Shown here: piece after piece, positions 5,899 to 54,393 of the stretch | How positions within the stretch are numbered: the stretch's first letter is position 1 | Layout: each line of letters opens with the position of its first letter | From: a virus | Strand: one strand, 5' to 3' | Length of the DNA stretch: 64,000 bases | IMG/VR virus record: IMGVR_UViG_3300035698_017111 | Location: 32,001-96,000 of that record | Translations under genes and position numbers: made by a program | The notes under the pieces: generated by a model | Seen by the model: the letters and a program-made list of their open reading frames with translations, nothing else | The model's database searches: none | What the model was told of the DNA's origin: nothing

Positions 5899-6967
5899 AC
5901 CACAGAAACTATCCGAAGTAGTTAGCCAAGACCATGTTAAACAAACACTGACAAAAGCAGTAAAGCAAAACAGACTATCCCACGCATATCTATTTACTGG
6001 TATTCGTGGCACTGGTAAAACCACAATTGCTAGAATCCTATCACAAATAGTCAATTGTGATAATGGTCCTAGTGTTGAGTATGATGTTAATAGTAAGATT
6101 TGCAAATCCATCATTGCTGGATCGTGTCCTGATGTACATGAATTAGATGCCGCAACACATTCGTCTAAAGACGACATTCGTGATATAAAGAAAATGGCTT
6201 ACAATAACCCAATTATGGCTAGAAAGAGATTCTTTATTGTGGATGAGGTACATTGTCTGAGGGGTCCTGCTGCATCTGCTTTACTTAAAATTCTTGAAGA
6301 ACCACCACCCACAGCAATGTTTGCTCTTTGTACAACAGAATCACATAAAATTCTTCCTACAATTCAATCTAGATGTCAGAGATTTGATTTGATTAAAATC
6401 TCTATCAGTCAAATAACAGAACATCTTCAAGGGATTTGTGAAAAAGAAAAAAGAAAAATAACAAAAAGTGCCTTGACTCTTATTGCCAAAGCAGCACAGG
6501 GTAGCGTTAGGGATGCTTTGAGTATGCTTGATTCTGTGTTTGGTAGGTTTGAAGAAGGTGAAGATGTAAAAGATAGTGATGTCTCCAGCATTATAGGCAA
6601 ATCGAACTTCACGTTTTGCATGAATCTTTTCAAGTATATAAGAACAAATGATTATAGAGGGTCTATTAGTCTTGTTAAGGGAGCAACAAATTCTGGCGTT
6701 GATCCTCAAAAGATATTTTTAGATCTATTGGAATACGTTCACGATCTTCTTATTGGAAAGTTCATGGACACTGACAGTCACATCCATGAAGAGGATAGTG
6801 TCAAGAACAAGTGGATTGAAGAAAGAGATCAGGTTTCCGAAAAAACACTTTTGTATTGTACTAACGTTTTGAATAAGTATATTACAGATATCAACACAAT
6901 GCCCAAGATAGATTTGATGTTGGACGTGTGTATTATTCACATGATGCAGGGACCAAAAAATAAGTAA
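5864..6967 (+). CDS. dnaX: DNA polymerase III gamma/tau clamp-loader subunit
   Basis: LYRKYRP, HAYLFTGIRGTGKTT, DEVH, LEEPP, TIQSRC. Confidence 0.95.
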   Translation: MEEKKVLYRKYRPQKLSEVVSQDHVKQTLTKAVKQNRLSHAYLFTGIRGTGKTTIARILSQIVNCDNGPSVEYDVNSKICKSIIAGSCPDVHELDAATHSSKDDIRDIKKMAYNNPIMARKRFFIVDEVHCLRGPAASALLKILEEPPPTAMFALCTTESHKILPTIQSRCQRFDLIKISISQITEHLQGICEKEKRKITKSALTLIAKAAQGSVRDALSMLDSVFGRFEEGEDVKDSDVSSIIGKSNFTFCMNLFKYIRTNDYRGSISLVKGATNSGVDPQKIFLDLLEYVHDLLIGKFMDTDSHIHEEDSVKNKWIEERDQVSEKTLLYCTNVLNKYITDINTMPKIDLMLDVCIIHMMQGPKNK

Positions 6968-6980
6968 AACACAGCCAAAG

Positions 6981-7010
6981 TTGACAAATTAGCCATTTTG
7001 TATCATATAC
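6981..7010 (+). promoter_or_regulatory. sigma70-like promoter upstream of the sigma factor gene
   Basis: TTGACA at 6981 followed by an AT-rich -10-like region. Confidence 0.5.
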
Positions 7011-7042
7011 CCTTGTAGACAGTAGTCCTACAGGGGGTTTGT

Positions 7043-7810
7043 ATGTACGGGGAAAAGAAATATAATAAAGATGTAGTGTACTTTGTAGACTTGTATCCTG
7101 GCATCAAATATAAGAAATTAGAGAAAGAAGAACTTCATGATAAAATAGAAAAAGCAAAAAATGGCGACAATTATGCATTTGAAGATATTCTTCGACATAT
7201 GCACAACTACCTTTGTTATCTAACTAAGTTTTTCTTCATACAGGGTGCTGAGGCACAAGACGTATATCAAGAAGGAATGATTAAACTTCTTAATGTTATT
7301 CAGAAATATGACAAAAATAAAGGAAGTTTTATTTCATTCGCACAATCCTCTATTCGAAAACACATCATTACATCTATCAATAAAGAACAGGCAAAAAAAA
7401 GAAAGGTTTTGAATCAATCTTTGAGTTTGAATTGCGAAACCAAAAATCAAGATGGTGAAATTGTTACATTTGCAGACACGATAACAGATGAGGGGCAGGA
7501 AACAAAAACCCCAACACCACTAGACCTCGTTCAAAAAGATCACGAAGAATATATTATTGAGAAAATTTCAGAAGTTCTTTCTGAAATGGAACAAAAAATA
7601 TTTGTTCTGAGATTCATAGAAAGTATGAGTTACAGGGATATAGCCAAAGAGCTCGGTCTAAAAAAGAGAAATAAAAAGACTGGCCGGATTATGTGGGATC
7701 AAAAATCTGTCGATAATGCAATTTGGCGTTCTAGGCCAAAGATTAAAAAAGCAATGGAACGTCTCAGGATTGATCCAAAAGCCTTAAACATTAAGCCAAA
7801 AAAGAAATAG
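7043..7810 (+). CDS. RNA polymerase sigma factor, SigH-like
   Basis: FFIQGAEAQDVYQEGMI..YD...SFISFA...IITSI, LNQSLSL, LSEME..IF, SYRDIA, KSVDNA match the sigma-H family pattern. Confidence 0.88.
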   Translation: MYGEKKYNKDVVYFVDLYPGIKYKKLEKEELHDKIEKAKNGDNYAFEDILRHMHNYLCYLTKFFFIQGAEAQDVYQEGMIKLLNVIQKYDKNKGSFISFAQSSIRKHIITSINKEQAKKRKVLNQSLSLNCETKNQDGEIVTFADTITDEGQETKTPTPLDLVQKDHEEYIIEKISEVLSEMEQKIFVLRFIESMSYRDIAKELGLKKRNKKTGRIMWDQKSVDNAIWRSRPKIKKAMERLRIDPKALNIKPKKK

Positions 7811-42647: not shown

Positions 42648-43436
42648 ATGGCTAAGGGACAAAACAATAGAAAGGGAATGATTTATTCCGCTACCAACAA
42701 GATAAATAACAAAAAATATATTGGACAAACTATCAGTACGCTATCTGTTAGAAGAAGTGGTCATAAAAGCAAGGGAAAGAGAGCTTGTCCTTATTTTGGT
42801 AGAGCAATAGAAAAATATGGAGTCAATGGTTTTGTATGGGAGATTATAGAAGATGATCTGCCTATTTCTGAATTAAATGAAAGAGAAATATATTATATTG
42901 CAAAACATAAAACAAGAAACAAAATTTATGGATACAATATCGATATTGGTGGCTTTGTTCATAAAGAATATTCGATAGAAGCAAAATTAAAAATACAAAA
43001 TACGCATAAGGGTAGAAAATTTTCAGAAAATCACAAAAAAAAGATAAGTGAAGCAAAAAAAGGAAAAGGTTTTTCTAAAGAACACATTAAAAACCTTTCT
43101 ATTTCTCATATTGGAAAAGTATCTGGAAAAAAAGGTATTAAGAATTCTGAAAAAACACGTAAAAAGATTAAGGAATCTGTAAGGTTTAAAAATTACCAGA
43201 AAGGACTCTCAAAAAACAACACTAGTGGATATAAGGGCGTTTGTTGGGACAAGAGATATGGAAAATGGCTATCGCAAACCACTGGCATGAATAAGAAAAT
43301 GGTTTTTATAGGTTATTTCGGAACTAAAGAAGAAGCTGCTATTTCTTATGATAAAAAAATAGTCGAAATGGTTGGTATCGAAAATTGTGTCACTAATTAT
43401 GATCTTGGGTTAATTGGATGTAAATGCTATGAGTGA
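42648..43436 (+). CDS. GIY-YIG homing endonuclease with NUMOD3 and AP2 domains
   Basis: MIYSATN...YIGQT, HKGRKFSENHKKKIS, NTSGYKGV...GYFGTKEEAA..YD. Confidence 0.92.
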   Translation: MAKGQNNRKGMIYSATNKINNKKYIGQTISTLSVRRSGHKSKGKRACPYFGRAIEKYGVNGFVWEIIEDDLPISELNEREIYYIAKHKTRNKIYGYNIDIGGFVHKEYSIEAKLKIQNTHKGRKFSENHKKKISEAKKGKGFSKEHIKNLSISHIGKVSGKKGIKNSEKTRKKIKESVRFKNYQKGLSKNNTSGYKGVCWDKRYGKWLSQTTGMNKKMVFIGYFGTKEEAAISYDKKIVEMVGIENCVTNYDLGLIGCKCYE

Positions 43437-45348
43437 TCAAAAAATAAATATAGAAAACAATACTGGCGTCATCAACATATACAATGGTACTGAAGACAAT
43501 GAAGTCTTTAAGAAAAGTATATCGATGAATTCTGTAGACAAATATTCAACTCCGCTTGAAGCTAATATAGAAATGTCTCCATGGGGATCAAATAAATATA
43601 AAGTTTCCTTTATGTTAAAGAACAGTCTTTTGGGACAAGTTATGCAGCAAAACAATTTGGTCTACGACACAGAGGACAAGGCGAGAAAAGCATACAAAGA
43701 TATAATTGAAGTCATGAATGGGTTCAAAGAAGACGCTGAGAAGAAATTAACACATAGTGCTATAATCGTTCCTGCTATTTGGAATCGAATGGCATCTTTC
43801 AAAGATGACCTACATAAACCAGAATCTGACGATCTTCTTATTAGACACGACATCTCTCATCTCCATAAAGATTTCCAAGGTGCGACTCCAATGGGTCTTC
43901 TCGTCCATCCTGTTGACGAACACTTTCCAGATCACTATGGAATCGTCAAGGATGCTGCCAAGAAACAAGGTATGATTAAAACATCTGAGAAGAAAGATAT
44001 GGATTCTGGATGGTATAGAGAATCAAAAATAAAGAAGATGCCAAGTGGTAAATGGCGAGTTACCGATGAGTCTGGTAAAAAGAATCTGGGTGAATCAGAT
44101 ACTGAAGCAGGTGCCAAGAAAAGACTTCATGAAGTTGAGTACTTCAAGAACAAATCTGCTGGCAAACAAGAACTCGACCTAATAGAAGAGCTTGATCGAA
44201 AAAGACTGGATGGTAACTTTAATGAAGATGATTTGGCCAAAATCGCATGTTGTTTGTCTATATTTCCCAACGATCCAAACGATGTGAGGGAGATAAAAAG
44301 AGAAGCTCTTTTGCGTATACATAGTTTGTTTAAAACTAAAGAAACAATTGATAATTGGGCTGCAAAAAACTCAGAAAGAATAGATAGTGCGATATCTGCC
44401 ATTGGACAAATCGGTATTGTAAGATCGGCCGCAACAATTAAAGAGATATCTGCAAACGACTACGATTTGTTTATTTTTGATGCCGACCAAACGATTTGGG
44501 ATGGTGAATGTGCAAAAGATATGGAACTTCCATTCTCTATGATTGAAGAAAACACAATACAAGACAGTGTGGGGCGTAAAATTCGTTTACGTGATGGTGT
44601 TAGGGAAACTCTTCAGGGACTAACTGATATGGAGAGAGACATTGGTCTTGTTAGCCATTCTGAAAAAAAAGGTGTTCAGTATCAAGAACAACCTGTTGTT
44701 CTTCTCCTAAGAGAATTCGGTATTCTTGAGTATTTCAACGAAATGGTAGTCGTTGCTGGAGATATTCCTAAAAGTATATTTATTCCAAGTGGTAGACGAA
44801 CCATTTTTATAGATGACGAATCTCATAATCTTTTTGATGTATCTGAAAATTCAGATGCAGATGCAGCAGATGTGAAAGACGTTAAGTTCTTTAAGGTAGA
44901 AGATCTCTTGGAAAGAGGTAAACAGGAATTGAAAGACTCTGGATACTCTTCTGCTGAAGAAGCATTGTCCGATGTCGTCAAACAACAAGATATTGTCTCT
45001 GCAGCCAAAAAGCCACCTAAGCCAAAGGGTAAGGGTAAGTATGAACTTGATCACAAGAAGCCAAAGTGGAAGGGTGGTACGGAAAACGAAAGCAATCTTC
45101 AGTGGATACCAAAATCAAAACATAAGAAAAAGACCCAAGAAGAAGGTTCGTTCCAAGAAGGTGGAAAAGATCGTCACAGAAAGCTGAAAAACAAGAAGAC
45201 AGATCAGGGTTATTCTCAATATCAGAGTGATGCTGGTAAAGCCAAGGTCAGTAAAGAAAGAAAAGAAATGGGTGAAGAGGCTTTTAGTCGTAAACAAAGA
45301 GAGAGAGCTAAGAAAAGATGGGCCAAAAATACATGGTATAGAAAATAG
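43429..45348 (+). CDS. multidomain protein with MDP-1-like HAD phosphatase and HNH-like domain
   Basis: FDADQTIWD, FIDDE; ELDHKKP..GG....NLQ. Confidence 0.75.
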   Translation: MSDQKINIENNTGVINIYNGTEDNEVFKKSISMNSVDKYSTPLEANIEMSPWGSNKYKVSFMLKNSLLGQVMQQNNLVYDTEDKARKAYKDIIEVMNGFKEDAEKKLTHSAIIVPAIWNRMASFKDDLHKPESDDLLIRHDISHLHKDFQGATPMGLLVHPVDEHFPDHYGIVKDAAKKQGMIKTSEKKDMDSGWYRESKIKKMPSGKWRVTDESGKKNLGESDTEAGAKKRLHEVEYFKNKSAGKQELDLIEELDRKRLDGNFNEDDLAKIACCLSIFPNDPNDVREIKREALLRIHSLFKTKETIDNWAAKNSERIDSAISAIGQIGIVRSAATIKEISANDYDLFIFDADQTIWDGECAKDMELPFSMIEENTIQDSVGRKIRLRDGVRETLQGLTDMERDIGLVSHSEKKGVQYQEQPVVLLLREFGILEYFNEMVVVAGDIPKSIFIPSGRRTIFIDDESHNLFDVSENSDADAADVKDVKFFKVEDLLERGKQELKDSGYSSAEEALSDVVKQQDIVSAAKKPPKPKGKGKYELDHKKPKWKGGTENESNLQWIPKSKHKKKTQEEGSFQEGGKDRHRKLKNKKTDQGYSQYQSDAGKAKVSKERKEMGEEAFSRKQRERAKKRWAKNTWYRK

Positions 45349-45397
45349 ATAAGAAATAGCTTGAAATCGTCCCTCGGATGTCGTATTGTGAAATATA

Positions 45398-45880
45398 ATG
45401 TTCGAGGGAGATTTGTATCCAATGAAATATCTAGTGCACGTCATTGATGAGGCATCCGTTCATCACAAGACAGAGGGTGGTGAGTATGAGATGGAAAGAG
45501 GGTTGGCTGAGAATGGTGAAGAATGCCAGGTTTCTCGGTCTGATTCTTTCTATTTCATAGACGTAGATGATGCTGTAGATGCCGTTGTATCTGTGGCTAA
45601 AATAGTAAGAGTTAAAGACTCAAATGGGGATCTTGTTTCTCTATCTACTGCATTTTCTCAAACAAAAAAAGAAGTTGAAAACGCTAGTCTTGACGAAGAC
45701 GACTTCACCGTTCTTCATGACCTACCATTGGATTATGCTGGGAACACTCATTCCAATCTACTCATTGCTTCTTGTCAAATTAAACGTCATAATGAAGAAG
45801 AAGAATGGCAAGAGCTTCATAGAGTCTATTTCTACGTAACTCAACAAGATAAAATAATGCAAATCACAGGCAAGGATTAG
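45398..45880 (+). CDS. hypothetical protein
   Basis: ORF after a TCGTAT motif. Confidence 0.6.
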   Translation: MFEGDLYPMKYLVHVIDEASVHHKTEGGEYEMERGLAENGEECQVSRSDSFYFIDVDDAVDAVVSVAKIVRVKDSNGDLVSLSTAFSQTKKEVENASLDEDDFTVLHDLPLDYAGNTHSNLLIASCQIKRHNEEEEWQELHRVYFYVTQQDKIMQITGKD

Positions 45881-45884
45881 ACCA

Positions 45885-46424
45885 ATGGGCAATCTTAAAA
45901 ATTTACGATGTTATTTTTCTCATCCAATTGAGAATCAGCAAGATCCAGGGCCAATTGCAAGAGATAGGGATCTGTTGGCCGACTTTCTAAAAAAGAAATC
46001 TTCATTTTTCATCGATCCAAGAAAGATATCACTTCATGGTATCTCTGAGGTAATCGATAAAGATCAAATCGTAAAAGAGAAAGACTTTAAAGAGCTTCGT
46101 AGGCAGATGAGGATTATTGTCAGAAAAGATCTCAGAAGTGTTGATATCTCTGACTTTATAGTTGCGTATTTACCCAAAGACATTAAGACAACGGGCTGCA
46201 TTCATGAGGTGATTCTATCTGATGACCAGAAGAAACCAACGTTTATTGTATGTCCAGAGGGAATAGAATACATTCCTTCATGGCTTTTTGGCCTTGTTCC
46301 TCTTGAATATATGTTTGACTCCATGGAGGATTTAATCGTATACTTGACTGAGATCGATAATGCCAATATCGAAACTTTAGAAGATGATAGATGGCAATTC
46401 ATCATAGCAACACTAATAGATTAA
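45885..46424 (+). CDS. nucleoside 2-deoxyribosyltransferase-like protein
   Basis: YFSHPI, DLRSVDISDFIVA, TGCIHE, KP. Confidence 0.7.
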   Translation: MGNLKNLRCYFSHPIENQQDPGPIARDRDLLADFLKKKSSFFIDPRKISLHGISEVIDKDQIVKEKDFKELRRQMRIIVRKDLRSVDISDFIVAYLPKDIKTTGCIHEVILSDDQKKPTFIVCPEGIEYIPSWLFGLVPLEYMFDSMEDLIVYLTEIDNANIETLEDDRWQFIIATLID

Positions 46425-46435
46425 GGAGACGTGAA

Positions 46436-46627
46436 ATGGCAGTAGATCCCTTTGCAAGACTCGCAGAAATTTGTCGTGAAAAAGAAAAGAAGATGCACCC
46501 AGATCCAACGAACAACTTTTTGGAAAGAGAAGAATATGTAGAAAAAAAGGGCAAGGGACCAGAGTTTATCTACGTCCCAACAGAAGAGGGTGAAGAGATA
46601 TTTACAAAGATAGAGGAGGAGGAGTGA
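46436..46627 (+). CDS. hypothetical protein
   Basis: AAGGAG RBS before MAVDPF. Confidence 0.5.
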   Translation: MAVDPFARLAEICREKEKKMHPDPTNNFLEREEYVEKKGKGPEFIYVPTEEGEEIFTKIEEEE

Positions 46628-46628
46628 A

Positions 46629-47141
46629 ATGAAGACTATTGCAAGGACACTCAGAGAAAGAAAGACTTGGTGTGAGAATCTTAGGATTTGTTCTCATAGA
46701 ATAAATATTAGTTCGGTAACAGATGATGAAGTCAAGCCAGATTTCAAAGTTACAGATTTGTTGAGTGAATTCAACGAAATGCAGATCGGTCTTAGAGAAG
46801 CCAAGACAAAGGTGGCTAAGAAGTCACAGGAGTTGATGGTTCAAATTCCCGAGGGTATCGATACCGTTGGTGAATCTGGAAGCGAAGTCACTCTTTATTT
46901 GGCTATCTTGATTCGAGATGACATGAAGGCTCGAAAATCTATTCTTATGCGTATGGCAGAAAAGACCATTGATCCAAGAGCAGTGCATGGTCACCTTCTA
47001 CATAGGGATGATGCTCCACCGCCAAAGAAAGTTAGGCATTTCGATTTCGATGCCGTGTTGTCGGAAATAGATAACCTACAAGACAAGATTGATATTCTGG
47101 ATTCTTCAATCCAGTATGTTGATAGTACATCGGAAGTCTAA
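46629..47141 (+). CDS. DIP1984/DUF6847-like coiled-coil protein
   Basis: Pattern MK.IA..L..R, TL..AI..RD, EID.L..KI..LD..IQ.....EV. Confidence 0.7.
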   Translation: MKTIARTLRERKTWCENLRICSHRINISSVTDDEVKPDFKVTDLLSEFNEMQIGLREAKTKVAKKSQELMVQIPEGIDTVGESGSEVTLYLAILIRDDMKARKSILMRMAEKTIDPRAVHGHLLHRDDAPPPKKVRHFDFDAVLSEIDNLQDKIDILDSSIQYVDSTSEV

Positions 47142-47145
47142 GAAT

Positions 47146-47368
47146 TCTGCATGCCTGCCGGTGCAGATAGGCTGATGGAAAACAAGAAAATAGGGCTTGA
47201 AACCCCTGTTCCTACATGCTTTAATGAAAATGGTTGATCTCGATCAATAGCTGATTGAGCCAATGACAAACACGCACAATGCACATTGGGAAAAATCAAC
47301 AGGCACATTGGGCAATTATGGTACTGGGTACTGTGGACTGGGTACTTTTATCTTGTTTGACATTAGCC
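47146..47368 (+). ncRNA. candidate structured RNA downstream of the DIP1984-like gene
   Basis: Long-range stems GGCTGATG/CATTAGCC and AAACAAGA/TCTTGTTT enclose hairpins and short repeats. Confidence 0.6.
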
Positions 47369-47371
47369 GTT

Positions 47372-47404
47372 GAGAGAGGGCTTTCGTGGCCCTCTCTCTT
47401 TTTA
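47372..47404 (+). terminator. rho-independent terminator
   Basis: GAGAGAGGGC/GCCCTCTCTC stem plus T run. Confidence 0.85.
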
Positions 47405-47414
47405 GGAGACTATT

Positions 47415-47933
47415 ATGACGACTGTCGAGGAATTTTTTGACAACATAAGAGATTTGAATATCGGTGCTGCTGTAGATTGTTGGATTTCTCTCAGCGAAGA
47501 TGAAAAAAGTGCCATTAGGCAAGGAATGCTTGATCTTTGTGAAGACGATAGGGAAGGTTTTAGAATGCGGTTTAATCTTCTCAGCGAACACATATCCAAT
47601 GACATCTTTGCTCTTTGTTCACGACAAACAGACATTCCAGACATTCCTGATGTTTTGGATGGTTTTCAAGATGGCTTAAATAAAGTTTCTAAATTAATTG
47701 AAGAAAATCAAGAAGATATTGTTAATCTTATCATGAGCCTTCGTTGTTTGTCGAATTTATTGATAACACCTTTGCCGAAAGAAAACAAGAAAATGGATCC
47801 CGAATTATATGGGGTAATAGCAGACCTATTGTCTTCATATAGACGTGAATTAGAAGACAGAGGGATGCCTGCTTATTATGTTAAAGATTTAATAATAATA
47901 GAAGCTAGGAGGCTTAGTTCACGATATGAATGA
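47415..47933 (+). CDS. hypothetical protein
   Basis: AGGAG RBS. Confidence 0.6.
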   Translation: MTTVEEFFDNIRDLNIGAAVDCWISLSEDEKSAIRQGMLDLCEDDREGFRMRFNLLSEHISNDIFALCSRQTDIPDIPDVLDGFQDGLNKVSKLIEENQEDIVNLIMSLRCLSNLLITPLPKENKKMDPELYGVIADLLSSYRRELEDRGMPAYYVKDLIIIEARRLSSRYE

Positions 47934-48345
47934 AATTGATCCCATGTCTATGTCTACTGAAAGTTTGATAGATTTCTTCCTAGAGAAAAGTGATATCTCT
48001 ATAGAGGAGTTTTTATACCACGTTAATGATAAGAGAATGGTCTTCTACATAGAGGTGGTAAACTTCTTTCTATTAAACAACACCAATGATGATATGTGGT
48101 ATACGGTTGTCCATGAGGCAGAGCCAATAATTAAAGACATAGAAACGGATGAGGGGTCGAATTGGATCCTTCGAGAATTTATGATTGATTTGACACATTT
48201 GGTTGGTTACAGGGGAGAAGATTTGCAATTGCTCGTCTTCCCATTTGAGGATGAAGAAACCAATGAACTCTTCGGCTCTGCATTGAGAGACACAAAACCA
48301 GCACAATATTGGCATAATGGAGAGTTTGTTGGAGATAATCTTTAA
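47926..48345 (+). CDS. hypothetical protein
   Basis: Coupled ORF. Confidence 0.55.
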   Translation: MNEIDPMSMSTESLIDFFLEKSDISIEEFLYHVNDKRMVFYIEVVNFFLLNNTNDDMWYTVVHEAEPIIKDIETDEGSNWILREFMIDLTHLVGYRGEDLQLLVFPFEDEETNELFGSALRDTKPAQYWHNGEFVGDNL

Positions 48346-48584
48346 TAAAGTATGGTCTGAATCTCTTCCTCCCAATTCGAACAATTAAAATGTTTTTCGC
48401 ACCTAAGACATTTGTGATCTCTGGATTCCCATTTATTTCTAAATAAAACAGCATATTTAACCATCCATTCAACAGCTGCTTCGTTATGGGTAAGTGTCCT
48501 TCCCATTTCGTTTTCTTTTTCAAGATAAGATGCGATCATGAATCTTTCGGTCTTTACGTATAATCTAAAGTCAATATATGTCAT
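48342..48584 (-). CDS. DUF4032-like small protein
   Basis: E..GR.L..NEAAVEW..KYA. Confidence 0.5.
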   Translation of the reverse strand: MTYIDFRLYVKTERFMIASYLEKENEMGRTLTHNEAAVEWMVKYAVLFRNKWESRDHKCLRCEKHFNCSNWEEEIQTILY

Positions 48585-48657
48585 TACATTCCTCCCACAC
48601 TAGTCTGTTCGATACAATATACAACAATACCTTTCTGGCTATGTCGTATAGAAATAT

Positions 48658-49020
48658 ATGGCCAACAAAAGACAAAAGATTCCCAAACATGTTAAAGAGG
48701 AGGTCAGGCATAGACAGAAGTCTGGCTGTGTAACATGTATTGATCGTGGAATAATCTATCACCACGTTCATCCAGTATCTATGGGTGGGATGAATTCTCA
48801 TTACAACATAGTCCTCCTTTGCAAATCTTGCCATAACAAGATACATCTAGGTGACCTGCCTACCATCACTAGCGTACTGGAATACCTGTACTATCTCAAG
48901 CATAATTGCTTGCCAGATAGCCAAGAAGAAATCACGGAATTGGCAGAAACAATAAAGGTAGAACATGTCCCTATTTGGAATAGAGAAGAAGAGGACATTG
49001 ACAATGAACTGGTACGCTAA
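48658..49020 (+). CDS. HNH endonuclease
   Basis: CVTC, HHVHP..MGG, NIVLLCKSCHNKIH. Confidence 0.9.
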   Translation: MANKRQKIPKHVKEEVRHRQKSGCVTCIDRGIIYHHVHPVSMGGMNSHYNIVLLCKSCHNKIHLGDLPTITSVLEYLYYLKHNCLPDSQEEITELAETIKVEHVPIWNREEEDIDNELVR

Positions 49021-49687
49021 AAAAATTGTAGATAAAGAAACACCCACAGACAATATCCCCGGTGGATTTGCTGATAATATGCCAGATGAGTCCTTTGACG
49101 AAGAACAAATTGCCAAGGGAATAAAGATAGAAATGGAACATGTTGATGATGTTGATCTAGCAAGAGAAATATCAAAGGACCATCTTAAAGAATTCCCTAA
49201 ATACTATAACGCTTTAGAAGAAATGGAAAAGAAACTAAAGAATGAAAAGAAAGCTTTTAATTTCAGAAGGATTGTTGCTCAAGAAGAATACGAGGGACAT
49301 TCTAGTGTTGTAGATAGTATGGAACTTGGTGGAGGGGACGGCCGTAAATTAGATCCTAAAACAAAGGTTCAAATAAATAATGAGTTAGATTCTAAATTCA
49401 TTCACTATCCTGGCACTAGTAAAACAATATTTTTCAAACAAATACCAATGGCAGATATCGAAAATATTATTGCCAAATACGGTGTGGTTCTTCTTCAAGA
49501 AGACAATACAAAATTGCAACTACTGTTTCTAAGTGGAGAAGATAGTTATGACTATTTTGATGCAGCATATGCCGACTCAAAGGATGGGGAGTCTGGATTC
49601 TATATCCCATTTGAGAACACAAGATTATATCTACATTGGACTCGTGTAGACAACGGAACATATTATATTAATGTTCGTCTTACCTAA
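49004..49687 (+). CDS. DUF5661-like domain protein
   Basis: IPGG.AD, GIKIEMEH, EISKDHL.E...YY. Confidence 0.75.
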   Translation: MNWYAKKIVDKETPTDNIPGGFADNMPDESFDEEQIAKGIKIEMEHVDDVDLAREISKDHLKEFPKYYNALEEMEKKLKNEKKAFNFRRIVAQEEYEGHSSVVDSMELGGGDGRKLDPKTKVQINNELDSKFIHYPGTSKTIFFKQIPMADIENIIAKYGVVLLQEDNTKLQLLFLSGEDSYDYFDAAYADSKDGESGFYIPFENTRLYLHWTRVDNGTYYINVRLT

Positions 49688-50152
49688 TTAACCCAAAAGA
49701 ACATAACAACCAGCACGTGGATGATTTGCGTAAATTTCTTCAATTTGCTGTGCTTTAATAATATGTGCTGGGTCAATTAATATTATTGGATTTTCATGTC
49801 TATGAAATGTACATCTTTCTACTTCTGATATTGGAATAATTCTCGATTTTTGATCTTCACTTATTTCAGATCTTTGATTTTCCATCATTCTAAATATGAG
49901 ATCTTTACAGTACATGTGTGTGGGGCCTATTAAATAACATTGTTTAAAATATGATAGTAACATAATGGCCAATGTTGTATTTCCCATTCTCCTTGGCAGT
50001 TTGGTTGCAATTGTCTTTAACTCCCTATCTGCACGAATAGGACCCAGATGTGCTATCTCTTTTGAAAGGTCACATTCTAAAATATACTCCACACATTCCA
50101 CTAAACCAGAAAATATACTAAACAATTTAGGATCTATTTTACCAAGTTCCAT
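49688..50152 (-). CDS. hypothetical protein with degenerate P-loop
   Basis: PRRMGNTT, ILID. Confidence 0.5.
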   Translation of the reverse strand: MELGKIDPKLFSIFSGLVECVEYILECDLSKEIAHLGPIRADRELKTIATKLPRRMGNTTLAIMLLSYFKQCYLIGPTHMYCKDLIFRMMENQRSEISEDQKSRIIPISEVERCTFHRHENPIILIDPAHIIKAQQIEEIYANHPRAGCYVLLG

Positions 50153-53895: not shown

Positions 53896-54015
53896 GACTG
53901 GAACGGATAGTCATTACAGTGATAGCTCATTTTGGTAGAGCATCGGCCTTCAACGCCGGTTGTTATAGGTTCAATTCCTATTCACCCAAACAAACTGACT
54001 CTCAATAATCCAGTC
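53896..54015 (+). ncRNA. Y RNA-like element 2 (YrlA-like tRNA mimic, anticodon TCA)
   Basis: GACTGGA/TCCAGTC and AGTCA/TGACT stems enclose a D arm, anticodon arm (loop CTTCAAC) and T arm GGTTCAATTCC; acceptor stem only 4 bp. Confidence 0.7.
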
Positions 54016-54265: not shown

Positions 54266-54393
54266 TTGCTAGGAACGGCACGTTGATACAGACAAAATAG
54301 CTCAGCTGGTAGAGCTGTTGGTATTCTAACCAATAGGCGTAGGTTCAATTCCTACTCTTGTCACCTTTACTCAACTGGTAATCACCCTAGCAA
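54266..54393 (+). ncRNA. Y RNA-like element 3 (tRNA mimic, atypical 8-nt anticodon loop)
   Basis: TTGCTAGG/CCTAGCAA and GTTGA/TCAAC stems enclose a cloverleaf at 54291-54363. Confidence 0.7.

What the first reader, a model, noticed from the sequence alone, without database searches (positions are those of the whole stretch)
46629..47404. DIP1984-like coiled-coil gene followed by a structured RNA of about 220 nt with internal short repeats
Seen: right after the stop codon come a hairpin (TCTGCA/TGCAGA) and long-range stems GGCTGATG(47170)/CATTAGCC(47361) and AAACAAGA(47180)/TCTTGTTT(47351). These enclose hairpins AATAGGG/CCCTGTT and TTGATC/GATCAA, GCACATTGGG twice (47281, 47303) and a 7-nt periodic tract GGTACTG-GGTACTG-TGGACTG-GGTACT, all before a strong terminator. 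Long noncoding gaps are rare in this dense genome. Inference: a protein plus cognate ncRNA pair in which the oligomeric protein binds the repeated motifs, resembling a type III TA arrangement or an RNP scaffold. I know of no described function.
Basis: partly seen in the sequence, partly recalled or inferred. Interest (0 to 1): 0.72.

Follow-up and report, generated by a model that had tools for sequence, protein, structure and literature searches.

The report
Heptad-repeat RNA partnering DIP1984-like phage protein
Right behind a small phage gene of unknown function lies a conserved, folded RNA of about 200 bases that displays a row of evenly spaced 7-base units; gene and RNA stay together in every relative examined and match no catalogued RNA family, so they are probably the two halves of an undescribed protein-RNA particle.

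Summary
The 199-nt RNA (47170-47368, + strand) folds far better than shuffles (z -4.3; minus strand -2.5).

It is a conserved RNA, not a chance fold. The upstream ORF has the DIP1984 fold (TM 0.75/0.83 to PDB 3KDQ). All 19 distinct relatives with sequence downstream (35-45% protein identity; phage-like metagenome contigs) carry the same RNA on the same strand.

- A covariance model built without the window hits 47215-47348 (38 bits, E 1.6e-5).
- Helix P3 is 96.6% paired, with compensatory changes at 7 of 7 pairs.
- The closing stem P1 pairs in every relative with a different sequence.

The conserved core is AAAUGG, then P3, then 5-6 single-stranded heptads G-Y-A-Y-N-N-N (A invariant), with two more in the P3 loop. 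There is no Rfam 15 or PADLOC match, and no paper on DUF6847 function.

Best reading (about 0.5): a co-transcribed partner RNA on which the protein oligomerises, one protomer per heptad. Binding is inferred, not shown. The type III toxin-antitoxin, Y-RNA and VIPR-membership readings fail their tests.

This scan has already noted DIP1984 genes with heptad RNAs on other DNA (165 notes, at least 134 genomes).

The parts
46613..46624 (+). Shine-Dalgarno-like GAGGAGGAGGAG in front of the gene; it overlaps the end of the upstream ORF (stop 46625-46627)
   Evidence: sequence
46629..47141 (+). DIP1984/DUF6847-like gene (170 aa; four long helices plus a beta-hairpin)
   Evidence: Pfam DUF6847 E 1.1e-4 (22.6 bits, cut-off 27). 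NCBIfam DIP1984_fam E 4.9e-6 (26.8 bits, cut-off 70). AF2 model pLDDT 92.9. Foldseek top hit 3KDQ, TM 0.75/0.83. 22 homologues.
47146..47167 (+). P0: hairpin 4 nt after the stop codon, with no U-run. It is a possible processing site or 3' protection element for the mRNA.
   Evidence: A comparable hairpin (-9 kcal/mol or stronger) follows the stop codon in 13 of 19 lineages.
47170..47187 (+). P1 5' strand: P1a GGCUGAUG, GA internal loop, P1b AAACAAGA
   Evidence: Cognate 5'/3' flanks pair in all 19 lineages.
47189..47210 (+). P2 hairpin AAUAGGG-loop-CCCUGUU. This region is variable: relatives have 1-3 hairpins here.
47227..47233 (+). Conserved single-stranded AAAAUGG leading into P3 (family consensus AAAUGG)
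   Evidence: alignment columns 14-19, 1.2-2.0 bits
47233..47238 (+). P3 5' strand GUUGAU
47239..47294 (+). P3 loop. It holds a window-specific insert (47239-47273), then two units GCACAAU and GCACAUU (47274-47287), then GGGAAAAA.
47295..47300 (+). P3 3' strand AUCAAC
   Evidence: family: 96.6% paired, 7 of 7 pairs with compensatory changes
47303..47348 (+). Array of six G-Y-A-Y units: GCAC, GCAA, GUAC, GUAC, GGAC, GUAC. The conserved A lies at 47305, 47314, 47323, 47330, 47337 and 47344. No conserved pairing involves the array.
47351..47368 (+). P1 3' strand: UCUUGUUU, GA, CAUUAGCC
47372..47403 (+). Intrinsic terminator (11-bp GC-rich stem, then U5) that ends the gene-plus-RNA transcription unit
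   Evidence: A strong hairpin plus T-run follows P1 in at least 13 of 19 lineages.

Best explanation
The locus is a two-part module of a large phage: a DIP1984-fold protein and a partner RNA transcribed on the same message.

Inferred sequence of events:
- Transcription runs from the gene through the RNA to the terminator at 47372-47403.
- The RNA folds into a closed shape: P1 joins its two ends, P2 is variable, and P3 is conserved.
- A conserved A-rich lead-in (AAAUGG) and a row of single-stranded heptads (G-Y-A-Y plus three free bases) are left exposed. Six heptads lie between P3 and P1, and two lie in the P3 loop.
- Copies of the helical-bundle protein bind side by side, one per heptad, reading the G-Y-A-Y core. 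This gives a defined ribonucleoprotein of roughly 6-8 protomers.
- The post-stop hairpin P0 probably marks where the RNA is separated from the mRNA, or protects the mRNA's 3' end.

Shown: the fold of the protein, the conserved RNA structure, the periodic conserved motif, and strict co-inheritance.

Inferred: co-transcription, binding, stoichiometry, and the cellular role. The genomic company suggests RNA metabolism or translation during infection: tRNA and tmRNA genes, Ro60-like genes and RNA ligase.
For: - Strict synteny. The RNA lies 3' of the gene on the same strand in all 19 distinct lineages with sequence available. It hits once per locus and nowhere else in about 300 kb searched. The 146.8-kb phage record holds one gene and one RNA.
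- Only the gene and the RNA are shared by all loci. The neighbours differ.
- Model R2, built without the window, finds 47215-47348 at 38 bits, E 1.6e-5.
- P3 covariation: 96.6% of cells paired, 38 double changes, 0 of 500 shuffles as high, and slid controls 18-48% paired.
- P1: cognate flanks pair at a mean of -25.0 kcal/mol against -14.3 for non-cognate flanks. The cognate partner ranks first or second for 17 of 19.
- Heptads: A is invariant in four consecutive units (17 of 17 sequences). G1 carries 1.2-1.7 bits, Y4 about 1 bit, and positions 5-7 carry 0.05-0.8 bits.
- No conserved pairing involves the array.
- There is no sigma-70-like promoter between the stop codon and the RNA, and a terminator follows directly.
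- Conserved polar residues (R56, K59, R96, D97, D98, K100, R136) are invariant across the family.
Against: - There is no direct evidence of transcription, processing or binding.
- Co-inheritance alone would also fit a cis-acting 3' UTR.
- The DIP1984 fold has no known nucleic-acid-binding activity. The conserved face mixes acidic and basic residues.
- The oligomeric state is unknown; only a monomer was modelled.
- The window's own array has irregular spacing (9, 9, 7, 7, 7), and its P3 loop differs from the relatives' loops.
Confidence: 0.5

Rival explanations
1. The RNA is a cis-acting 3' UTR element. It stays part of the mRNA and controls the stability or translation of the upstream gene, possibly by autoregulation through the protein. 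It is not a separate RNP with a function in trans.
For: The RNA always lies between the stop codon and the terminator of the same gene, with no promoter of its own. The P0 hairpin sits right after the stop codon.
Against: About 200 nt with three conserved helices and 8 periodic motifs is far more than known 3' stabilisers need. In L012 and L014 a small ORF or a 250-380-nt spacer separates gene and RNA, yet the RNA is intact. Earlier notes of this scan (not tested here) report the RNA upstream of the gene in some archaea.
Confidence: 0.17
2. The RNA is a sponge or decoy. The heptad array titrates a host RNA-binding protein or ribonuclease that recognises YAY/ACA-type motifs. The DIP1984-like protein acts as chaperone or has an unrelated role.
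For: The periodic short motifs are single-stranded, as in CsrB/RsmZ-type sponges (established knowledge). The setting is a phage.
Against: A decoy for a host factor gives no reason for strict co-inheritance with one particular phage protein across lineages at 35-45% identity. The motif core differs in more distant DIP1984 loci (the A. baumannii plasmid has GUUAC-type units). That pattern fits co-evolution with the linked protein better.
Confidence: 0.1
3. This is a VIPR-like guide by convergent evolution. The protein forms a filament on the array, the fixed G-Y-A-Y cores are held by protein, and the three free bases of each unit together read a gapped nucleic-acid target.
For: The logic of fixed and free segments alternating in a phage-encoded RNA next to a small protein matches VIPR (bioRxiv 10.64898/2026.04.26.720920). 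Across the family, positions 5-7 are nearly unconstrained.
Against: The free positions are not hypervariable between close relatives: 90% identical at 79% protein identity, and 81% at 64%. A gapped search with skips of 0-5 nt over both strands of the phage record finds nothing beyond shuffled controls. The array has only 6 units. The protein fold is unrelated to RAMPs.
Confidence: 0.1
4. The RNA is a Y-RNA-like partner of the phage Ro60-like protein. The closed stem P1 is the Ro60 docking site, and the DIP1984-like protein is an accessory.
For: A Ro60/TROVE-vWA gene lies directly next to the module in two other lineages (L003/L031 downstream, L012/L033 upstream) and 7 kb away in the window. 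Like Y RNAs, the RNA is closed by pairing of its 5' and 3' ends.
Against: No Ro60-like gene lies within 3-6 kb in the other 9-10 lineages with flanks (the sensitivity of that tblastn search is limited). No match to Rfam Y_RNA or YrlA appears even at E up to 10. The P1 internal loop has no conserved sequence.
Confidence: 0.05
5. This is a type III toxin-antitoxin pair or similar addiction module: the protein is a toxin and the RNA its antitoxin.
For: The module is compact, mobile and made of a protein and an RNA. Relatives occur on small plasmids.
Against: The RNA is not built of long tandem antitoxin repeats. The RNA lies downstream rather than upstream with an intervening terminator. The protein has no ToxN/AbiQ/CptN-like fold. 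No PADLOC model hits any of the 22 members.
Confidence: 0.03

Closest known systems
DIP1984 family / Pfam DUF6847 (PF20935), NCBIfam NF038048; crystal structure 3KDQ of a Corynebacterium diphtheriae protein; often annotated 'septicolysin'
   Same: The fold is the same (TM 0.75/0.83). 21 of 22 phage relatives hit the NCBIfam model at E 0.01 or better (best 1.5e-14). The IRDD/LRDE motif aligns with the Acinetobacter plasmid protein.
   Different: All scores are below the curated cut-offs, and identity to 3KDQ is about 15%, so this is a distant viral branch. The family has no established function. No paper in the library deals with it beyond annotation.
VIPR systems (Vipr protein plus vrRNA; bioRxiv 10.64898/2026.04.26.720920 and 10.64898/2026.04.26.720927)
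   Same: Both are phage-encoded small proteins next to an RNA made of short tandem units in which a fixed core alternates with free positions, attached to a structured part. In VIPR the protomers oligomerise along the RNA.
   Different: Vipr is a RAMP/RRM protein, whereas this one is a helical bundle. The vrRNA unit is 5 nt (GGY/NN) repeated 9-16 times, whereas here it is 7 nt (G-Y-A-Y/NNN) repeated 6 plus 2 times inside a closed fold. The VIPR NN positions are hypervariable between close relatives; here they are not.
TRAP with the trp leader and HutP with the hut leader of Bacillus subtilis (from established knowledge)
   Same: An oligomeric protein reads short motifs repeated at a fixed spacing on single-stranded RNA. 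HutP's NAG triplets with 4-nt spacers also give a 7-nt period.
   Different: The protein folds and motifs are unrelated. Those systems are attenuators in 5' leaders of other operons, not a closed RNA behind the protein's own gene.
Ro60 (Rsr) with Y RNAs
   Same: The RNA is closed by its 5' and 3' ends. Ro60-like genes are adjacent in 2 lineages and 7 kb away in the window. The neighbourhood holds RNA-repair and tRNA genes.
   Different: There is no Y-RNA model match, no conserved bulged helix, and most loci lack Ro60 nearby.
Period-7 cluster #156,623 of bioRxiv 10.64898/2026.10.21.760802
   Same: Fixed tetramers alternate with variable trimers at period 7, mostly from Patescibacteria. Two relatives here lie on contigs binned as Patescibacteria.
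   Different: That cluster is described as an array followed by its reverse complement, with no protein partner. Here all units are in one orientation and a protein partner is invariably present. Identity of the two could not be checked, because neither figures nor sequences are held.

Membership tests
DIP1984 family / DUF6847 | Score at or above the curated cut-off of the family HMM | tested here: not met
   Pfam 22.6 bits against 27. NCBIfam 26.8 bits against 70. Relatives reach E 1.5e-10 and 1.5e-14 but also stay below the cut-offs.
DIP1984 family / DUF6847 | Fold of the solved family member 3KDQ | tested here: met
   AF2 model pLDDT 92.9. Foldseek places 3KDQ first and second at E 8e-5, TM 0.75/0.83; the next hit has E 0.59.
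DIP1984-linked heptad RNA (family defined here, models R1 and R2) | Hit by a covariance model built without the window, directly 3' of the gene on the same strand | tested here: met
   R2: 47215-47348, 38 bits, E 1.6e-5. R1: 27.1 bits, E 0.005.
DIP1984-linked heptad RNA (family defined here, models R1 and R2) | P3 helix and closing helix P1 supported by covariation; heptads unpaired | tested here: met
VIPR | Vipr protein with RAMP/RRM fold | tested here: not met
   The model is all-helical plus a beta-hairpin. No RAMP or Cas protein ranks among the significant PDB hits.
VIPR | vrRNA of 9-16 five-nt YNNGG units with hypervariable NN | tested here: not met
   Period 7, core G-Y-A-Y, 6 plus 2 units. 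The free positions are 81-90% identical between close relatives.
VIPR | Gapped complementarity of the free positions to a DNA target | tested here: inconclusive
   No match beyond controls in the phage's own 146.8 kb. Host and competitor genomes are unknown.
Type III toxin-antitoxin (ToxIN, CptIN, TenpIN) | Antitoxin RNA of tandem repeats of about 34-40 nt upstream of the toxin gene | tested here: not met
   No such repeats are present. The RNA is downstream and is a single closed fold.
Type III toxin-antitoxin (ToxIN, CptIN, TenpIN) | Toxin of the ToxN/AbiQ endoribonuclease type | tested here: not met
   Fold search. PADLOC gives no hit for 22 members.
Ro60 / Y RNA | Match to the Y_RNA or YrlA covariance models | tested here: not met
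   No match at E up to 10 in 46900-47600. None at gathering score in the window or in 19 relatives' loci.
Ro60 / Y RNA | Ro60 gene regularly adjacent | tested here: not met
   tblastn with three Ro60-like proteins finds a gene adjacent only in L003/L031 and L012/L033; in the window it is 7 kb away.
TRAP / HutP type attenuation proteins | Protein belongs to the TRAP or HutP family | tested here: not met
   Pfam reports only DUF6847.

The most novel reading that the evidence does not exclude
The DIP1984 fold is a second RNA-templated filament protein, unrelated to RAMPs. Protomers clamp the G-Y-A-Y core of each heptad and present the three free bases of successive units as a noncontiguous reading head for a DNA or RNA target. 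That would make this a convergent counterpart of VIPR, spread through phages, plasmids, bacteria and archaea.
Probability: 0.1. Interest if true: 0.92.

Novelty: categorically new. Interest (0 to 1): 0.74.

Why it matters
DUF6847/DIP1984 is a widespread family with a solved structure, and no paper in the searched library assigns it a function. On Acinetobacter plasmids it is still mis-annotated as the cytolysin 'septicolysin'.

Showing that its phage branch is invariably tied to a conserved structured RNA with a periodic motif gives the family a first testable function: an RNA-binding oligomer. It also adds an RNA family that is absent from Rfam.

Periodic-motif RNAs bound by oligomeric proteins have produced regulatory switches (TRAP, HutP) and, very recently, a programmable DNA-recognition code (VIPR). 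A third, structurally unrelated example would be of broad interest whichever way it works.

The module is small, about 0.8 kb, and can be tested directly by co-expression.

Tried and rejected
- Known RNA families. Rfam 15 at gathering score on the whole window, and at E up to 10 on 46900-47600, gives only chance-level hits in the terminator area. Nothing covers the RNA in 19 relatives' loci.
- Close relatives in IMG/VR and in phage GenBank records. No DNA match was found for 44000-50000. Single-protein and profile scans of viral contigs found no relative. The word-index protein search found nothing or almost nothing. Relatives came only from the exhaustive representative search and from metagenome and MAG scans.
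- RNA-side pattern scan of viral contigs. A 17-base degenerate pattern returned 14 loci. None is hit by R1 or R2, so they are chance matches.
- Other conserved pairings. An exhaustive column-pair scan of the core alignment finds only P3, so the core has no conserved pseudoknot.
- Small ORFs in the RNA (36 and 53 aa). They are not conserved, and the conservation pattern is structural.
- Defence-system reading. PADLOC gives nothing.
- PDB by sequence profile. Nothing was found; only the fold search found 3KDQ.
- Whole-record search for Ro60 on the long metagenome contigs. Those records are not held.
- Gapped-target search in the phage's own genome. Negative.
- Bacterial DIP1984 loci in bulk. Only one plasmid was inspected.

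Full report
**1. What is there**

The window is part of a 146.8-kb IMG/VR virus record, estimated 77% complete. At 46629-47141 (+) lies a 170-codon ORF with a strong Shine-Dalgarno sequence. It is followed by 273 nt without a conserved ORF, up to the next gene at 47415.

- a hairpin 4 nt after the stop codon (P0, 47146-47167);
- a two-part closing stem (P1a 47170-47177 with 47361-47368; P1b 47180-47187 with 47351-47358);
- hairpin P2 (47189-47210);
- the direct repeat GCACATTGGG at 47281 and 47303;
- the 7-nt tract at 47319-47348;
- an intrinsic terminator at 47372-47398 followed by T5.

The 204-nt core folds at -62.3 kcal/mol, against -45.1 +/- 4.0 for dinucleotide shuffles (z -4.27, 0 of 200 as good). 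The reverse complement reaches only z -2.53. Together with the orientation of the terminator, this places the RNA on the + strand. No sigma-70-like promoter lies between the stop codon and the RNA, so co-transcription with the gene is the simplest reading. That is an inference.

**2. The protein**

Pfam DUF6847 and NCBIfam DIP1984_fam match, but below their curated cut-offs (22.6 against 27 bits; 26.8 against 70 bits).

An exhaustive search of 1.84 billion representatives found 22 relatives at 29-45% identity. Of these, 16 hit DUF6847 and 21 hit DIP1984_fam, with a best E of 1.5e-14.

The AlphaFold model built from their alignment is confident (pLDDT 92.9). It shows four helices of about 27 residues plus a beta-hairpin. 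Its only significant PDB neighbours are chains of 3KDQ, the Corynebacterium diphtheriae protein of unknown function (TM 0.75/0.83, E 8e-5; the next hit has E 0.59). So the gene is a distant viral member of the DIP1984 fold.

Invariant residues are D38, L55, R56, K59, A92, L94, R96, D97, D98, K100, R136, I154 and I161. No PADLOC model matches. No paper in the library deals with the family beyond annotation. On Acinetobacter plasmids it is called 'septicolysin' or 'DIP1984 family protein'.

**3. The RNA is conserved with the gene**

Contigs encoding ten of the relatives all show 260-630 nt of ORF-poor sequence after the gene. Read side by side, these stretches share one architecture:
- P0 after the stop codon;
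- a closing stem P1 with an internal loop;
- one to three variable hairpins (P2);
- a single-stranded A-rich lead-in ending in AAAUGG;
- helix P3, enclosing an AU-rich stretch and GCACAnnGUAnnUGG;
- CACAC;
- a row of G-Y-A-Y units every 7 nt;
- the 3' strand of P1;
- a terminator.

A covariance model of the core built from seven of them (R1) found the four held-out relatives and the window: L015 at 2e-9, L009 at 1e-5, L016 at 0.005, and window 47215-47348 at 0.005.

A profile scan of metagenome contigs gave 14 more loci. All 13 with sequence downstream carry the RNA 60-120 nt after the gene, on the same strand, once per locus and nowhere else. Two loci from MAG bins do the same.

A second model built from 17 sequences without the window (R2) scores the window at 38 bits, E 1.6e-5. 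It hits none of 14 chance pattern matches from IMG/VR.

The phage record holds exactly one gene and one RNA. All-against-all comparison of ORFs from 13 loci shows that only the DIP1984-like gene is common to all of them, and the neighbours vary. The unit of inheritance is therefore gene plus RNA.

**4. Structure support**

- P3: on 17 distinct sequences, 96.6% of cells are paired and 7 of 7 pairs show compensatory changes (38 cells). The covariation score is 0.88 against 0.21 in shuffles (0 of 500 as high). Partners slid by 1-3 columns give only 18-48% paired. RNAalifold on the seed predicts P3 and nothing else. An exhaustive scan for other co-varying stacks in the core also finds only P3.
- P1: its sequence differs in every lineage, yet the region 5' of the core and the 34 nt after the array pair at a mean of -25.0 kcal/mol with their own partner. 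With the partner from another lineage the mean is -14.3. The cognate ranks first or second for 17 of 19, and the exceptions and second places are mostly close relatives.
- P0: a hairpin of -9 kcal/mol or stronger follows the stop codon in 13 of 19 lineages.
- Terminator: a strong hairpin plus T-run follows P1 in at least 13 of 19 lineages.

**5. The heptads**

In model columns the array reads G-Y-A-Y-n-g-n five times.
- The A is invariant in four consecutive units (17 of 17 sequences).
- G1 carries 1.2-1.7 bits and Y4 about 1 bit.
- Positions 5-7 carry 0.05-0.8 bits.
- Two further units (GCACAnn, GYAnUUG) lie in the P3 loop.
- CACAC follows P3.

The window has six units after P3: GCAC, GCAA, GUAC, GUAC, GGAC, GUAC. 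The conserved A lies at 47305, 47314, 47323, 47330, 47337 and 47344. Two more units lie in the loop at 47274-47287.

**6. How it probably works**

A short motif repeated at a fixed spacing on single-stranded RNA, held in a conserved frame and inherited with one small protein, is what an RNA bound by a row or ring of identical protomers looks like. TRAP and HutP are examples from established knowledge, and Vipr on vrRNA is a recent one.

I therefore favour an RNP in which DIP1984-like protomers each bind one heptad (confidence about 0.5). Seven nucleotides per protomer is compatible with side-by-side packing of four-helix bundles. That is an inference, not a computation.

The guide-like version of this idea is weakened by two results. 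The 'free' positions are not hypervariable: they are 90% identical at 79% protein identity (L039/L041) and 81% identical at 64% (L006/L035). A gapped search of the six trimers with skips of 0-5 nt over both strands of the phage record is no better than shuffled controls.

**7. Context**

The module sits among RNA-related genes in several lineages:
- Ro60/TROVE-vWA genes lie directly next to it in L003/L031 and L012/L033, and 7 kb away in the window.
- RNA ligase genes occur in L006, L031 and L036.
- tRNA genes lie within a few kb in L003/L031, L012, L016, L042 and L046. There is a tmRNA gene in L043 and a group I intron in L031.

This points to RNA metabolism or translation during infection, but it does not define a role. 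The RNA matches no Y-RNA model, and most loci lack a nearby Ro60 gene, so I do not file it as a Y RNA.

**8. Wider family**

On the A. baumannii plasmid pAB0057, the annotated DIP1984 family gene (6332-6793) aligns weakly with the phage profile, including the IRDD/LRDE motif. It is followed by 322 ORF-free bases closed by a perfect 10-bp stem, with GUUAC-type 7-nt units just before the closing strand (z -2.1). R2 does not hit it. This single case agrees with earlier notes of this scan that the gene-RNA pairing extends beyond phages with different unit cores. I did not test that claim in bulk.

**9. Comparison and novelty**

- There is no Rfam 15 family, no PADLOC model, and no literature on the function of the protein family.
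- VIPR is the closest in logic but differs in protein fold, period, unit number and variability. Membership features were tested and not met.
- Type III toxin-antitoxin features are not met.
- A preprint on language-model clustering of intergenic DNA lists a period-7 cluster from Patescibacteria without a protein partner. It is described as an array plus its reverse complement. Whether it overlaps this family could not be checked.
- This scan has noted the DIP1984-plus-heptad-RNA pairing repeatedly on other DNA (165 notes in at least 134 genomes). The present locus is a further, well-supported instance, not the first sighting within the scan.
- Relative to the public record examined here, it is an undescribed protein-RNA system.

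**10. Verdict**

The interpretation as a protein-ncRNA pair is supported, the binding mechanism is plausible but untested, and the toxin-antitoxin analogy is rejected. Interest is 0.74.

Noticed in passing
window 53917-53988 and 54291-54365: ARAGORN and Rfam call two tRNA-like genes. One has a UCA (opal-reading) anticodon and one has an irregular anticodon loop. They lie in the Ro60-like/scaffold-RNA array already reported by earlier agents.
   Followed up: no
window 47239-47273 and 47354-47367: The P3 loop of the window's RNA carries an insert absent from relatives. Part of it (47250-47272) is a near-copy of the P1 5' strand and can pair with the P1 3' strand (14 nt, 86%). It may be an alternative conformer or a relic of an internal duplication.
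   Followed up: partly
L045 (JALNXF010000007.1) and L046 (CAYYLG010000001.1): Relatives of the module lie on 62-kb and 121-kb contigs binned as Candidatus Gracilibacteria and Candidatus Saccharibacteria MAGs. These are either phage contigs binned with their host or prophages. Either way it hints that this phage group infects Patescibacteria.
   Followed up: no
L048 (NC_011585, A. baumannii pAB0057) 6332-7060: An annotated DIP1984 family gene is followed by a closed ORF-free stretch: a 10-bp perfect stem 6817-6826 with 7001-7010, with GUUAC-type 7-nt units just before the closing strand. It is a possible bacterial counterpart of the module on a well-studied plasmid type.
   Followed up: partly
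L043 1475-1841; L031 8-237; L016 1-60 and 1179-1253; L042 3696-3871: A phage-borne tmRNA gene, a group I intron and several tRNA genes lie within a few kb of the module in relatives.
   Followed up: no
window 43414-45348: A 644-aa ORF combines a HAD/acid-phosphatase-like domain (E 6e-8) with a C-terminal HNH nuclease motif and a lysine-rich tail.
   Followed up: no
control genomes: Of 14 well-known control genomes, only Deinococcus radiodurans has a DIP1984_fam hit over the curated cut-off. It is the organism in which bacterial Ro60 and Y RNA were first studied. The locus could not be fetched.
   Followed up: no
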